Below are positions 5,276 to 7,068 of a DNA stretch of 18,564 nt, piece after piece (position 1 is the first letter of the stretch; each line of letters starts with the position of its first letter). Source of the DNA: a virus. Its lineage: Duplodnaviria > Heunggongvirae > Uroviricota > Caudoviricetes. Both the position numbers and the translations under genes were made by a program. The notes beneath the pieces are model-generated. The model searched no databases. It was not told where the DNA came from and saw only the letters and a list, made by a program, of their open reading frames with translations. Where the stretch lies: the IMG/VR virus record IMGVR_UViG_2875713109_000004; one strand, given 5' to 3'.

Positions 5276-5352
5276 TTACCGTTGGGGTAATAATTATCCT
5301 TATGTGGTTTGAAGTCAATAGGTATGATTATAAAAAATTACCCGTAAGGTAA
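5276..5352 (-). promoter_or_regulatory. Leftward early promoter region with two perfect TTACC-N5-GGTAA operator palindromes (5276-5290 and 5338-5352) and a TATAAT -10 (minus strand, 5327-5332)
   Basis: Read directly: gTTACCgttggGGTAAt and aTTACCcgtaaGGTAAt; minus-strand TATAAT at 5327-5332 with the 5338-5352 palindrome sitting where a -35 would be. Confidence 0.55.
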
Positions 5353-5361
5353 TTCTAAGGG

Positions 5362-5390
5362 CAATAAAAAAGCCGCTCAATGGCGGCTTA
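5362..5390 (-). terminator. Rho-independent terminator downstream of repressor gene
   Basis: Minus-strand hairpin AAGCCGC-cattga-GCGGCTT followed by TTTTTTATT (plus-strand aaaaaagccgctcaatggcggctt). Confidence 0.6.
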
Positions 5391-5409
5391 ATATCTGAAA
5401 TGTATGGAG

Positions 5410-6000
5410 TTATTCTTGAGTTTTACCGTTCTGAACAATCACGAAATCGACGTAGCTCTCGATCTTGCTTTTCTCGCTCTCAGGTAACAATGCGTAGCGG
5501 GCCCGGTCGTAATGGATGGTCGCCGGGTCGCGAGGATGGATGAGCAACTCATAGCCGCGGCGGCCGAACGCGCTGGCGATCGCCTCCAGGGTGGAGATGG
5601 AAACGCTAACCTCATTGTTCAGCATGCGGTTGATTGTCGCCTGGGCAACGCCGGACGCCTTCGACAGCTTACCCTGGGAGGACAGGTCGCGGTTGTTCTG
5701 CATCCACGCTTCGAGGTTATGCGCCGCCAGCTGGCCGATATCGGAAGGGGTGATCTCCTCCTGGGGGATGGCAACAGCAGATAATGAGTGGTCGACGTCC
5801 AGCCAGTTCGACGGTTTGTTCGCTGCCTTCTCAATCTTGCGCGCCACCGTGTCGCCGACAACCTTCTGCCCGCGGGCCCAGCGGTTCACCAGGTTTGCCT
5901 GAGTTCCCAGTTTTTCCGCCAGACGAGTCTGCACCCCGTTAAAGTCACGGTCGATGATATCGTTAATATTCTGCCTGCGGATATCCTGAATACTTTTCAT
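5410..6000 (-). CDS. Prophage repressor, tandem helix-turn-helix architecture (186-CI-like N-terminal HTH), no S24 peptidase domain
   Basis: Track ORF 196 aa; two HTH-like segments (QTRLAEKLGTQANLVNRWARGQ and LSKASGVAQATINRMLNNEVS); no Ala-Gly cleavage site plus Ser/Lys peptidase domain seen; divergent from a Cro-like gene across an operator-rich intergenic region. Confidence 0.75.
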   Translation of the reverse strand: MKSIQDIRRQNINDIIDRDFNGVQTRLAEKLGTQANLVNRWARGQKVVGDTVARKIEKAANKPSNWLDVDHSLSAVAIPQEEITPSDIGQLAAHNLEAWMQNNRDLSSQGKLSKASGVAQATINRMLNNEVSVSISTLEAIASAFGRRGYELLIHPRDPATIHYDRARYALLPESEKSKIESYVDFVIVQNGKTQE

Positions 6001-6055
6001 GCTCTGGTGAATCGCCTCATATATGAATTAGTTAGTGGTTCAATTAAAAGCGAAT

Positions 6056-6118
6056 TTACCTCACAGGTAAATGCACCCGACAGGTAACAAACCTTGATTT
6101 TTATTACCTTCTGGGTGA
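6056..6118. promoter_or_regulatory. Divergent immunity-region operator/promoter array: perfect TTACC-N5-GGTAA (6056-6070), degenerate copies at 6073-6087 and 6104-6118, candidate rightward promoter TTGATT (6094-6099)
   Basis: Read directly: tTTACCtcacaGGTAAa; gcaccCGACAGGTAA; TTACCttctgGGTGA. Three-site arrangement between repressor and cro-like gene resembles lambdoid OR organisation. Confidence 0.6.
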
Positions 6119-6154
6119 ATATTTGTTATCTGAAATTAATATCAGGCAATAGCT

Positions 6155-6385
6155 ATGAGCGAGAACGAAAAATTCGACTTCAAAAAACACTGGTTGCAAC
6201 TCACTCCTGATGAGCGAAATGCCTTTGCTGACGAGGCCGGAACGACCAGCCACTACATCCAGACTCATCTGACAGGCCGCCGGAAAATGCCCGGTAAGAC
6301 ATTGATGAATGGGCTATTTAAGGCATGTAAACAACGCGGATGGGTCAGAACTAAGCCTGAACTGGCTATCTTCTTCTACGAATAA
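6155..6385 (+). CDS. Cro/CII-like small HTH regulator
   Basis: Track ORF 76 aa; segment AFADEAGTTSHYIQTHLTGRRKMP resembles small phage HTH regulators (Cro/CII/YdaS-like); divergent from repressor. Confidence 0.6.
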   Translation: MSENEKFDFKKHWLQLTPDERNAFADEAGTTSHYIQTHLTGRRKMPGKTLMNGLFKACKQRGWVRTKPELAIFFYE

Positions 6386-6405
6386 AAACTCCTTCTAAAC
6401 CCCAT

Positions 6406-6430
6406 CAGGCCGCCTTCTGGCGGTCTTTTC
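6406..6430 (+). terminator. Rho-independent terminator immediately downstream of cro-like gene
   Basis: Hairpin GGCCGCC-ttct-GGCGGTC (one G-U pair) followed by TTTTC; 20 nt after cro-like stop. Confidence 0.5.
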
Positions 6431-6534
6431 ATATCTATTCAGTCCTCTCAGGTAATAATAATCCGAATATGGTTGATCTTTTTTCGGCCATCGCACAAAA
6501 TCATCGTAACCATAACCAGAATCTGAGGTGAAGT

Positions 6535-6744
6535 GTGGAGATTATCACTCGTATGTCAGCCGCGAAGGCTGGACTGAAGCGTTATTACACCGGAAAGCAG
6601 TGTAAGCGAGGCCATGACAGCGAGCGCTGGGTTTACAACGGCCATTGTGTGGAATGCACCATGGAGTCAAACCGCAGGCGCCAGGCAGAGATTAAACGGA
6701 TTATGGATGAAGCTGCGAAAGGCAACGTGCCGGAGGTGATCTGA
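6535..6744 (+). CDS. Small putative zinc-binding protein (69 aa)
   Basis: Track ORF; motif CKRGHDSERWVYNGHCVEC (C-x3-H ... C-x2-C); GAGGTG SD before GTG at 6535 (alternative ATG at 6553). 3' end overlaps the convergent minus-strand ORF by about 44 nt, so one of the two may be shorter or spurious. Confidence 0.4.
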   Translation: MEIITRMSAAKAGLKRYYTGKQCKRGHDSERWVYNGHCVECTMESNRRRQAEIKRIMDEAAKGNVPEVI

Positions 6745-6928
6745 TGGCGCGCAGCTCAGCCATCGGGCCATCAACATTAAAGCCATCATCACCCAGCTGG
6801 CGCAGCAATGTCATCAGGTGCGAATCTTCAACAAGGGAGCGAACGCCTCCCGGCGTGTGTATACGTTCGGCAAAGCCTTTTTCCAGCGGGTGATGATACT
6901 GACGTTGCATCTGATATTCTCCATGCAT
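6701..6928 (-). CDS. Small ORF directly downstream of a LexA box; candidate SOS-controlled antirepressor (function inferred from context only)
   Basis: Track ORF 75 aa (MHGEYQMQRQYHH...); second ATG at 6910 has GGAG SD about 8 nt upstream and is the more likely start; LexA box sits 4 nt upstream of the first ATG. No recognisable domain. Confidence 0.35.
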   Translation of the reverse strand: MHGEYQMQRQYHHPLEKGFAERIHTPGGVRSLVEDSHLMTLLRQLGDDGFNVDGPMAELRAIRSPPARCLSQLHP

Positions 6929-6929
6929 T

Positions 6930-6949
6930 CACTGTATTTATGTACAGTA
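6930..6949. promoter_or_regulatory. LexA (SOS) box
   Basis: cACTGTATTTATGTACAGTA: perfect CTGT-N8-ACAG with AT-rich spacer, 17 of 20 matches to TACTGTATATATATACAGTA by hand alignment. Confidence 0.7.
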
Positions 6950-6986
6950 GCAAAAGTCCAAGTGACTATCCAGAACGAATTGCCAT

Positions 6987-7068
6987 TTACCTGAAAGGTA
7001 ATAATTTTCCTGATTGTTATTCATTCAATTCATATAAGGTTTGACAGGTAATAAACTGTCCTGATGAT
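6987..7068 (+). promoter_or_regulatory. Operator palindrome TTACC-N5-GGTAA (6987-7001) plus candidate promoter (TTGACA 7040-7045, weak -10 about 17 nt downstream) upstream of the tailspike gene
   Basis: Read directly: tTTACCtgaaaGGTAAt; TTGACAGGTAAtaaactgtcctgATGATG; strong GGAG SD before tailspike ATG. The -10 is poor, so promoter activity is uncertain. Confidence 0.4.

What the first reader, a model, noticed from the sequence alone, without database searches (positions are those of the whole stretch)
5276..7050. Recurrent palindromic operator TTACC-N5-GGTAA: four perfect copies, all in regulatory gaps
Perfect 15-bp palindromes occur at 5276-5290, 5338-5352, 6056-6070 and 6987-7001, with degenerate or half-site copies at 6073-6087, 6104-6118, about 6451-6455 and 7046-7050. 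With 10 fixed positions, roughly 0.02 perfect matches are expected by chance in 18.5 kb, so four is a strong signal. They bracket the repressor gene in an OL/OR-like arrangement, and one overlaps the -35 position of a leftward promoter with a perfect TATAAT. This defines the immunity operator of the element and should let one trace its whole regulon.
Basis: seen in the sequence. Interest (0 to 1): 0.7.

Follow-up and report, generated by a model that had tools for sequence, protein, structure and literature searches.

The report
Known epsilon15-type phage repressor operators
The repeated TTACC-N5-GGTAA palindrome is real and is the binding site of the prophage's master repressor, but this operator is already annotated in phage epsilon15 and conserved across its genus, so this is an ordinary new instance in a deleted E. 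coli prophage.

Summary
There are four perfect TTACC-N5-GGTAA sites (0.01 expected), and all six sites with at most one mismatch lie in intergenic gaps.

The window is an E. coli prophage of the genus Uetakevirus (epsilon15/phiV10/SPC32H type), next to guaA. It has lost 25.5 kb: replication and packaging genes and all virion genes except the tailspike.

The motif is the one the epsilon15 RefSeq record annotates as "repressor" binding sites (ATTACC-N5-GGTAAT). The 196-aa protein is a full-length homologue of SPC32H Rep (PDB 5D50), which binds palindromic sites as a tetramer.

Site positions and spacings are fixed across relatives:
- a 62-bp pair brackets a conserved leftward promoter;
- three sites (17 + 31 bp) lie between rep and the cro-like gene;
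- single sites lie upstream of the late transcription units.

- Site 6987 is not part of OL/OR. It is the conserved operator between the LexA-controlled antirepressor gene (truncated here) and the tailspike gene. The deletion brought it close to rep.
- The TATAAT promoter is not conserved.
- A fifth conserved site lies at 13631, before the lysis genes.

Verdict: new member of a known kind, low interest. Not yet found in the literature I could read: the 62-bp pairing and a second conserved motif, CATATRWGGTT.

The parts
5276..5290 (.). Left operator, promoter-proximal (perfect). Its end abuts the -10 of the conserved leftward early promoter, so it covers the predicted start site.
   Evidence: the positional homologue is perfect in all 7 genomes and present in 74/74 loci
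5338..5352 (.). Left operator, distal (perfect). It lies 62 bp (start to start) from 5276 and about 20 bp upstream of the -35.
   Evidence: 62-bp spacing in 74/74 loci
5290..5318 (-). Candidate leftward early promoter: TTGACT (5318->5313), 17-nt spacer, AATTAT (5295->5290). It would drive the gp37-like, gp36-like, exonuclease and RecT genes and those beyond.
   Evidence: consensus scan; conserved in all 7 genomes. Inferred; the start site is not mapped.
5370..5389 (-). Intrinsic terminator of the rep gene
   Evidence: phiV10 annotates a terminator at the same place
5410..6000 (-). rep: 196-aa repressor with an N-terminal HTH DNA-binding domain and a C-terminal HTH_3 plus tetramerisation/Ant-binding region
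   Evidence: Pfam HTH_3, HTH_26; PDB 5D50 SPC32H Rep, E 1e-48, residues 1-192; N-terminal domain invariant residues
6056..6070 (.). Operator 1 in the rep/cro gap (perfect). It overlaps the -35 and spacer of the candidate rep promoter (TTTACC 6071->6066, 17 nt, TTTAAT 6048->6043).
   Evidence: The promoter is inferred from conserved hexamers.
6073..6087 (.). Operator 2 in the rep/cro gap (2 mismatches, GCACC left half). It is perfect in the epsilon15, SPC32H and BUCT711 clade.
6104..6118 (.). Operator 3 in the rep/cro gap (1 mismatch). The GGTGA variant half-site is conserved. The site lies in the spacer of the candidate rightward promoter (TTGATT 6094-6099, 17 nt, GAATAT 6117-6122).
   Evidence: 48 bp from operator 1 in 74/74 loci
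6155..6385 (+). cro-like gene (epsilon15 gp39 / phiV10 p41 homologue), a 76-aa putative HTH regulator
   Evidence: phrog_35, transcriptional repressor, E 3e-10
6441..6455 (.). Decayed operator (3 mismatches; GGTAA half-site at 6451-6455). It lies downstream of the cro terminator (6407-6426) and upstream of the candidate gp40 promoter.
   Evidence: 1-mismatch homologues in phiV10 (33112) and Tyrion (35365)
6752..6753 (.). Junction of a 25,470-bp deletion. It removed the DnaT-like gene through the 3' part of ant, along with five more operators.
6701..6910 (-). Truncated antirepressor gene. Ant residues 1-53 of 86 are fused to unrelated codons.
   Evidence: SPC32H ant annotation; alignment; phrog_450
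6932..6947 (.). LexA box CTGT-N8-ACAG. It overlaps the candidate ant promoter (TGGATA 6972->6967, 17 nt, TACTGT 6949->6944).
   Evidence: only match in the window; conserved in all 7 genomes; role taken from the review PMC7380047
6987..7001 (.). Operator (perfect) between the divergent ant and tailspike promoters. It is centred about 57 bp upstream of the predicted ant start and about 45-75 bp upstream of the candidate tailspike starts.
   Evidence: annotated as a repressor site in epsilon15 at 19895-19911
7047..7052 (.). Conserved GGTAAT half-site. It lies inside or next to the -10-like hexamers of the tailspike promoter.
   Evidence: conserved in 7/7 genomes; the same half-site sits at the portal-operon promoter of relatives
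13631..13645 (.). Operator (1 mismatch; conserved TCACC variant). It lies between gtrA (serotype conversion, leftward) and the holin/endolysin/Rz cassette (rightward).

Best explanation
The TTACC-N5-GGTAA palindromes (extended consensus A-TTACC-Y-N3-R-GGTAA-T) are the operators of Rep, the 196-aa master repressor of a Uetakevirus (epsilon15/phiV10/SPC32H-type) prophage beside guaA in E. coli.

Each half-site would be read by one N-terminal HTH domain. By homology to SPC32H, Rep works as a tetramer with two DNA-binding pairs, so one tetramer can hold two operators at once.

Inferred geometry:
- Left of rep, a pair 62 bp apart (about six helical turns) brackets the conserved leftward early promoter, at about -62 and +1.
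- Between rep and the cro-like gene, three sites (17 + 31 bp apart) overlap the candidate rep promoter and the candidate rightward early promoter. This would give repression of lytic genes and autoregulation.
- Further single sites lie upstream of the tailspike promoter and the lysis-cassette promoter. In intact relatives there are more, before the terminase genes, the portal/head operon, int and the post-replication operon. Rep would therefore silence every lytic transcription unit directly.

In intact phages, induction goes through a small antirepressor, Ant. Its gene lies beside the tailspike gene and is held off by host LexA. In this window ant is truncated by a 25.5-kb deletion, so the remnant is probably locked in the repressed state.

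What is shown:
- motif enrichment;
- strictly intergenic, syntenic placement and fixed spacing;
- identity with the annotated epsilon15 repressor sites;
- Rep homology to a solved structure;
- the deletion.

What is inferred:
- the promoter positions;
- looping;
- which sites repress and which might activate.
For: - Enrichment: 4 perfect sites against 0.01 expected. phiV10 has 14 sites with at most 1 mismatch against 0.78 expected.
- Identity with a known operator: the epsilon15 RefSeq record annotates seven 'protein_bind: repressor / lysogeny' features. All are ATTACC-N5-GGTAAT, and they sit at the same syntenic gaps.
- Protein: the window's Rep aligns over residues 1-192 with SPC32H Rep, PDB 5D50 (E 1e-48). 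PMC9638917 reports that SPC32H Rep binds palindromic DNA sites as a tetramer and is dismantled by tetrameric Ant.
- The N-terminal domain keeps invariant residues, including N36, L37, R40 and W41 of the putative recognition helix, across clades that are only 45-76% identical overall. This fits one shared operator.
- Selection signature: half-sites are invariant while the central N3 carries no information, in 141 unique sites. The half-sites are also kept in alignments of otherwise diverging gaps.
- Architecture: the 62-bp and 48-bp spacings occur in 74/74 related loci.
- Placement: 12/12 sites are intergenic in the intact sibling, where gaps are 8.3% of the DNA.
- Ant/LexA: ant is annotated in SPC32H at the syntenic position. 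The LexA box is conserved and is the only one in the window. The LexA-to-Ant-to-repressor route is cited from PMC7380047.
Against: - No binding data exist for this element.
- The primary papers were not held (Kropinski 2007; Kim & Ryu 2013; Kim et al. 2016). I therefore could not check which sites were tested experimentally, or whether the epsilon15 features are predictions.
- Several sites do not overlap core promoter hexamers. Site 6987 lies between two -35 elements, and site 13631 lies about 47 bp upstream of the second motif. Simple occlusion does not explain these.
- The strongest site in the rep/cro gap overlaps the candidate rep promoter, not the cro promoter, which is the reverse of what a naive lambda analogy predicts.
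- The cro-like protein could bind the same sites.
- Promoters are consensus-level predictions. One search found 4 promoter-like matches against 2.6 expected.
Confidence: 0.88

Rival explanations
1. The palindromes are bound mainly by the 76-aa cro-like protein (gp39 homologue) or by another phage regulator (PerC-like, AlpA-like or gp49-like), not by Rep. A weaker version is that Cro and Rep share the sites, as in lambda.
For: The cro-like protein matches a transcriptional-repressor family that the Rep N-terminal domain also matches (phrog_35). In lambdoid phages CI and Cro share operators (established knowledge). Nothing here assigns the sites to Rep by experiment.
Against: The epsilon15 record assigns the sites to the repressor. 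SPC32H Rep is reported to bind palindromic sites. The cro-like protein has a different putative recognition helix and no significant similarity to the Rep N-terminal domain (E 8). Shared use by Cro is not excluded; exclusive use by Cro is unlikely.
Confidence: 0.07
2. The motif is a host transcription-factor site or a DNA-structural element (hairpin/terminator, methylase or integrase site) that happens to be common in phage intergenic DNA.
For: The sites are palindromic, and one pair of overlapping half-sites was flagged as a terminator-like hairpin (5264-5291). The phage encodes an MT-A70 methylase and an integrase.
Against: The stem would be only 5 bp, and there is no consistent T-run. The roughly 2.9 kb of host and IS DNA in the window holds no site with at most 1 mismatch. 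Sites track the Rep-encoding phage genus at fixed offsets from rep. Integrase arm sites are annotated separately in epsilon15, with different sequences.
Confidence: 0.03
3. Chance clustering of a short palindrome in AT-rich intergenic DNA.
For: Intergenic DNA is AT-rich, and the motif has only 10 fixed positions.
Against: 0 of 200 dinucleotide-preserving shuffles reach 4 sites (mean 0.01). The sites are conserved in position in genomes whose intergenic sequence has otherwise diverged. 12/12 sites are intergenic.
Confidence: 0.01

Closest known systems
Salmonella phage epsilon15 major repressor gp38 and its annotated binding sites (RefSeq NC_004775.2; Kropinski et al. 2007, not read)
   Same: The motif is the same (ATTACC-N5-GGTAAT). 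The syntenic positions are the same: left of rep, the ant (gp19)/tail-fibre gap, and, in intact relatives, the sites before terS and gp3 and after the replication genes. The gene order is the same.
   Different: Rep is only about 43-45% identical. The epsilon15 clade has three sites left of rep and three strong sites in the rep/cro gap; here there are two, and one strong plus two weak. The epsilon15 record does not annotate its own rep/cro-gap sites or its lysis-gap site, which my scan finds. The window's element has lost five sites through the deletion.
Salmonella phage SPC32H Rep-Ant lytic switch (PDB 5D50/5D4Z; Kim & Ryu 2013 and Kim et al. 2016, known to me only through citing papers)
   Same: Rep is a full-length homologue (E 1e-48). 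The ant gene sits divergent from the tailspike gene with a LexA box in its promoter. The operator set and spacings are the same.
   Different: Here Ant is truncated after residue 53 of 86, so the switch is probably no longer inducible. No biochemical data exist for this Rep.
Lambda CI/Cro with OL and OR
   Same: The repressor and cro-like genes are divergent. Multiple palindromic operators of graded quality flank the repressor gene and overlap divergent promoters. Cooperative or looped binding by higher oligomers is plausible.
   Different: The repressor has no S24 autocleavage domain. Induction goes through a LexA-controlled antirepressor. Operators are also scattered before every late operon instead of relying on an antitermination cascade. 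The best site overlaps the candidate repressor promoter. There is no sequence homology of the operators.
Dispersed-operator repressors: P1 C1 (many operators, Coi/Ant antirepressors) and mycobacteriophage L5 gp71 'stoperators'
   Same: One repressor has binding sites spread across the genome, in front of or within many transcription units. P1 also uses antirepressors (my own knowledge; the L1/L5 multiple operators are mentioned in the abstract of PMC1934351).
   Different: Those operators are asymmetric and the proteins are unrelated. Here the sites are symmetric, strictly intergenic and few (about 12-15 per genome).
P22 immI region (mnt-arc-ant next to tailspike gene 9)
   Same: An antirepressor gene lies immediately beside the tailspike gene, as a second immunity region remote from the main repressor (P22 Ant/Mnt is mentioned in PMC7380047).
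   Different: P22 ant is controlled by Mnt and Arc. Here ant is controlled by LexA, with a Rep operator nearby. The proteins are unrelated.

Membership tests
Uetakevirus (epsilon15/SPC32H-type) Rep-operator immunity system | Repressor homologous over its full length to SPC32H Rep / epsilon15 gp38 (N-terminal HTH DNA-binding domain plus C-terminal tetramerisation/Ant-binding domain) | tested here: met
   5D50, E 1e-48, residues 1-192; tblastn 43-98% identity to Uetakevirus repressors
Uetakevirus (epsilon15/SPC32H-type) Rep-operator immunity system | Operator sequence ATTACC-N5-GGTAAT, as annotated for the epsilon15 repressor | tested here: met
Uetakevirus (epsilon15/SPC32H-type) Rep-operator immunity system | Syntenic placement and spacing of the operators: 62-bp pair left of rep; cluster in the rep/cro gap; ant/tailspike gap; conversion/lysis gap | tested here: met
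Uetakevirus (epsilon15/SPC32H-type) Rep-operator immunity system | Small antirepressor Ant encoded divergently from the tailspike gene, under a LexA box | tested here: inconclusive
   The LexA box is present and conserved. The ant gene is present but truncated after codon 53 of 86 by the deletion. It is intact in the sibling prophage L091.
Uetakevirus (epsilon15/SPC32H-type) Rep-operator immunity system | Rep physically binds these sites as a tetramer and represses transcription | not testable with these tools
   Known only indirectly, for SPC32H, through PMC9638917
Lambda-type CI repressor (LexA-like, self-cleaving) | C-terminal S24 peptidase domain that mediates RecA-stimulated autocleavage | tested here: not met
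   only HTH families match; the C-terminal region matches the SPC32H Rep C-terminal domain
Lambda-type CI repressor (LexA-like, self-cleaving) | Three tandem operators at OR, with the strongest sites over PR and the weakest over PRM | tested here: not met
   the perfect site overlaps the candidate rep promoter, and the conserved weak variant lies in the candidate cro promoter (promoters inferred)

The most novel reading that the evidence does not exclude
The fixed geometry of the sites may encode a looping-based repression mode that has not been described for this phage group.
- Operator pairs exactly 62 bp apart clamp early promoters at about -62 and +1. They occur left of rep, after the replication genes and, in decayed form, at the gp40 promoter.
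- At late promoters a full operator, whose start lies 44-56 nt before the second motif, is combined with a conserved GGTAAT half-site next to the -10.
- A second conserved element, CATATRWGGTT (core CCAYATRTGG), sits at a fixed distance from Rep sites in portal, tailspike and lysis promoters that lack a recognisable -35. It could be the target of an unidentified late regulator or of the cro-like protein.
- All clades of the genus (Rep 43-100% identical; Salmonella, E. coli, Enterobacter and Klebsiella hosts) keep one operator specificity. That would imply genus-wide cross-immunity, with specificity shifted to the Rep-Ant interface.
Probability: 0.3. Interest if true: 0.45.

Novelty: new member of a known kind. 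Interest (0 to 1): 0.22.

Why it matters
The result gives a firm regulatory map for a cryptic prophage at guaA in E. coli. One repressor, about six retained operators and an inactivated antirepressor hold a still-intact lysis cassette, a tailspike and O-antigen-modifying genes.

It also shows that the operator code annotated for epsilon15 applies unchanged to the whole genus. That makes regulon annotation of these prophages straightforward, and it predicts cross-immunity between them.

It does not open a new kind of system. The only parts that might interest a specialist are the strictly conserved 62-bp operator pairing, which fits the tetrameric, loop-forming Rep, and the second motif at late promoters.

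Tried and rejected
- I tried to read the primary papers: Kropinski 2007 (PMC2698709), Kim & Ryu 2013 (PMC3807360) and Kim et al. 2016 (PMC4983836). None is held, so I relied on the GenBank annotation and on citing papers.
- I looked for distant Rep homologues to test whether the recognition helix and the operator change together. The word-indexed protein search reached only about 53% identity, and the viral-contig scan only 76% or more. All clades in hand share the motif, so no covariation test was possible.
- The exact 41-mer across the deletion junction was absent from the GTDB representative genomes. The host was found instead through the exact truncated-Ant ORF and the E. coli complete genomes.
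It is not conserved and has no -35.
- I rejected hairpin/terminator and chance explanations.
- I considered that the Rep N-terminal domain and the cro-like protein might be paralogues that share specificity. The pairwise comparison is not significant.
- I could not settle the tailspike promoter. Three candidate -10 hexamers remain: TAATAA 7049-7054, TAAACT 7052-7057, and GATGAT 7063-7068 with TTGACA 7041-7046. The last pair is not conserved in relatives.
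Full report
**1. The observation**

A pattern scan finds exactly four perfect TTACC-N5-GGTAA sites, at 5276, 5338, 6056 and 6987. Dinucleotide-preserving shuffles give 0.01 on average, and none of 200 reaches four.

Allowing mismatches adds two 1-mismatch sites, at 6104 and 13631, and 2-mismatch sites at 6073 and 5265. It also adds about a dozen 2-mismatch hits in coding DNA, which have no positional homologues in the relatives and look like background.

One is at 6451-6455. The other is at 7047-7051, one base off the stated coordinates.

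All six sites with at most one mismatch lie in gaps between genes. By my gene list, gaps are about 11% of the window.

**2. What the window is**

DNA and protein searches place the region in the phage genus Uetakevirus (epsilon15, phiV10, SPC32H, Tyrion, BUCT554).

Gene order in the window:

| Coordinates | Strand | Gene |
|---|---|---|
| 1-1254 | + | integrase |
| 1606-5258 | - | leftward early operon: MT-A70 methylase, DUF1317, PerC-like, AlpA-like, RecT, exonuclease, two small genes |
| 5410-6000 | - | rep |
| 6155-6385 | + | cro-like gene |
| 6535-6744 | + | gp40-like gene |
| 6701-6910 | - | truncated small gene (ant) |
| 7106-9457 | + | tailspike |
| 9606-10817 | + | Wzy-like gene |
| about 10851-13610 | - | gtrC-like, gtrB, gtrA |
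| 13752-15534 | + | holins, endolysin, Rz |
| 15754-16821 | - | host genes yfgI and yfgH |
| 17174-18564 | - | IS3-family transposase |

The window is 100% identical, over the 901-bp query (6300-7200) spanning the deletion junction, to E. coli PSS-07. An intact sibling prophage, 99.8-99.9% identical, lies between guaA and yfgI in E. coli USMARC-50748.

Against that sibling the window lacks 25,470 bp. Window 1-6753 equals sibling 1907-8659, and window 6752-17170 equals sibling 34130-44552.

The deletion removed the genes for replication, the 'nin-like' region, terminase, head and tail. It also removed the 3' third of the small gene beside the tailspike gene.

The exact fusion ORF made by the deletion is on record in at least 24 contigs, across 52 index blocks of public assemblies. 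The remnant is therefore natural and has spread.

**3. What the motif is**

The epsilon15 RefSeq record carries seven 'protein_bind: repressor / lysogeny' features.

Whole-genome scans give 13-18 sites with at most one mismatch in each of phiV10, epsilon15, BUCT554, SPC32H, Tyrion and Klebsiella phage BUCT711. About 0.8 would be expected.

Every perfect site in phiV10, epsilon15 and SPC32H is intergenic. This counts the two sites inside the annotated 5' end of phiV10 terS, a start that is probably set too far upstream. The few coding hits are 1-mismatch and are not syntenic.

The sites sit at the same places in every genome:
- two just before terS;
- one before the gp3/portal operon;
- one between the small gene and the tailspike gene;
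- one between the serotype-conversion genes and the lysis cassette;
- one upstream of int;
- two or three left of rep;
- two or three between rep and the cro-like gene;
- one after the cro terminator;
- a pair after the replication genes.

In the intact sibling of this element there are 12 sites, and all 12 are intergenic although gaps are 8.3% of the DNA.

**4. The protein**

The 196-aa product matches SPC32H Rep (PDB 5D50) from residue 1 to 192, with E 1e-48. Pfam finds only HTH families and no S24 peptidase domain.

A citing paper states three things about SPC32H Rep (PMC9638917):
- it binds DNA as a tetramer;
- the domain pairs that read each palindromic site come from different dimers;
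- tetrameric Ant breaks the assembly.

Another paper classifies its C-terminal tetramerisation domain with those of DNA-looping regulators (PMC9986798).

I aligned ten Rep sequences from clades that are 45-76% identical to the window's Rep. About 24 invariant positions fall in the first 70 residues, including N36, L37, R40 and W41 of the putative recognition helix. This is what one would expect if all clades read the same half-site.

**5. Signature of function**

I took 80 related loci from viral contigs. In them, 141 unique perfect sites give the extended consensus A-TTACC-Y-N3-R-GGTAA-T, and the central three positions carry no information.

Spacing is fixed. The two sites left of rep are 62 bp apart in 74 of 74 full-length loci. 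The outer sites of the rep/cro gap are 48 bp apart in 74 of 74. A second 62-bp pair lies beyond the replication genes in 66 of 74.

Alignments of the gaps from seven genomes show the half-sites preserved while the surrounding sequence diverges.

**6. How it most likely works**

Everything in this section is inferred from geometry.

*Left of rep.* All seven genomes keep TTGAC(T/A), a 17-nt spacer, then (A/G)ATTAT on the leftward strand. In the window this is 5318->5313 and 5295->5290.
- The proximal operator (5276-5290) begins at the last base of the -10 and covers the start site.
- The distal operator (5338-5352) lies about 20 bp upstream of the -35.
- One tetramer holding both sites, six helical turns apart, would clamp the promoter.
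It is replaced by TTAACT, TACACT or CTCGTC in other clades and has no -35.

*Between rep and cro.*
- A conserved TTTACC-17-TTTAAT on the leftward strand (6071->6066 and 6048->6043) is the best candidate rep promoter. The perfect site 6056-6070 overlaps it.
- A conserved TTGATT (6094-6099), with a -10-like hexamer 17 nt on, is the candidate rightward promoter. It has the 1-mismatch site 6104-6118 in its spacer.
- The weak site 6073-6087 lies between the two; it is perfect in the epsilon15 clade.
- The variant half-site TCACC/GGTGA is itself conserved at 6104 and at 13631. This suggests deliberately graded affinity.

*Site 6987-7001.* It lies between two divergent promoters.
- Leftward is the candidate ant promoter, TGGATA-17-TACTGT. 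Its -10 is overlapped by the only LexA box in the window (6932-6947).
- Rightward is the tailspike promoter region. It contains a conserved GGTAAT half-site (7047-7052) next to the -10-like hexamers.
- The small gene is annotated ant in SPC32H.
- A review states that in such Salmonella prophages LexA cleavage lets an antirepressor be made, and that it inactivates the repressor by protein-protein contact (PMC7380047, citing Kim and Ryu 2013).
- Here Ant keeps residues 1-53 of 86 and then runs into unrelated codons. The remnant probably cannot be induced.

*Site 13631-13645.* It lies about 20 bp upstream of the gtrA start codon and about 47 bp upstream of the conserved lysis-promoter region. I cannot say from sequence whether it represses lysis genes, affects gtr expression, or both.

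**7. Comparison with what is known**

This is the epsilon15/SPC32H Rep-Ant system. The repressor, the operator sequence and the operator positions all pass the membership tests. The Ant component is present but broken.

It works like lambda CI/Cro only in outline:
- there is no autocleavage domain;
- induction is by an antirepressor;
- operators sit in front of every lytic transcription unit, which recalls the dispersed operators of P1 C1 or mycobacteriophage L5 more than OL/OR.

The position of ant beside the tailspike gene recalls P22 immI.

**8. Novelty and score**

The motif, its assignment to the repressor and the repressor's structure are already public, so this is a new member of a known kind. 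Interest is low (0.22).

I did not find the following described in the literature I could read:
- the strict 62-bp pairing around promoters;
- the conserved weak variants;
- the full-site plus half-site arrangement at late promoters;
- the second motif, CATATRWGGTT. In phiV10 it has three distinct exact sites against 0.07 expected. It always starts 44-56 nt after the start of a Rep site, in front of the portal, tailspike and lysis operons.

These are modest leads. I put the probability that they reflect an undescribed looping and late-regulator layer at about 0.3.

**9. Limits**

Promoters are consensus-level calls. The three primary papers could not be read, so I cannot say which operators have already been footprinted.

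Noticed in passing
window 6752-6753 (junction); sibling L091 8660-34129: The prophage is a remnant with a 25,470-bp deletion. It lacks replication, terminase, head and tail genes but keeps int, the early-left operon, rep, cro, the tailspike, O-antigen genes and the lysis cassette. The same junction ORF is on record in at least 24 public contigs (52 index blocks), and the junction region is 100% identical to E. coli PSS-07.
   Followed up: yes
window 6701-6910 (-) and 6932-6947: The antirepressor gene ant is truncated after codon 53 of 86. Its LexA box (CTGTATTTATGTACAG, the only one in the window) and candidate promoter are intact. That promoter now reads antisense into gp40.
   Followed up: yes
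window 7031-7041, 13678-13688, 5299-5309, 6466-6476; phiV10 (L003) 3308, 20921, 24739: A second conserved motif, CATATRWGGTT (core CCAYATRTGG), lies at a fixed distance (44-56 nt, start to start) after Rep sites, in front of the portal, tailspike and lysis operons, which lack a recognisable -35. One-mismatch copies sit in the spacers of early promoters. The binder is unknown; it could be a late activator or the cro-like protein.
   Followed up: partly
window 5276/5338; L091 7182/7244 and 10246/10308; all relatives: Operator pairs are exactly 62 bp apart (start to start) and bracket a promoter. This holds in 74/74 related loci and recurs after the replication genes. It fits one Rep tetramer holding both sites.
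   Followed up: partly
window 6104-6118 and 13631-13645: The mismatched half-site is the same variant (TCACC/GGTGA) at both places and is conserved across clades. This suggests selected low-affinity operators, not decay.
   Followed up: partly
L091 1850-1864 (just left of the window's first base): A conserved 1-mismatch site (TTACC-N5-GGTAT) lies between guaA and int, in the attachment-site region upstream of the integrase gene. It is present in all relatives (e.g. phiV10 26870, epsilon15 26882).
   Followed up: partly
window 17174-18564 (-): An IS3-family transposase (orfA/orfB, rve domain) is inserted beyond yfgH. The intact sibling has yfgG at this position. The window-to-sibling homology ends at 17170.
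   Followed up: partly
phiV10 L003 41-121: The annotated phiV10 terS start (41) is probably too far upstream. Two Rep sites (87, 105) fall inside the annotated CDS, whereas in epsilon15 and Tyrion the homologous sites lie just before a shorter terS.
   Followed up: no
window 9606-13610: The serotype-conversion module combines a Wzy-like O-antigen polymerase/ligase-family gene with a gtrA-gtrB-gtrC-like glucosylation operon. It sits between the tailspike and lysis genes. This module differs between relatives (oac in phiV10 and SPC32H; polymerase and inhibitor in epsilon15).
   Followed up: no
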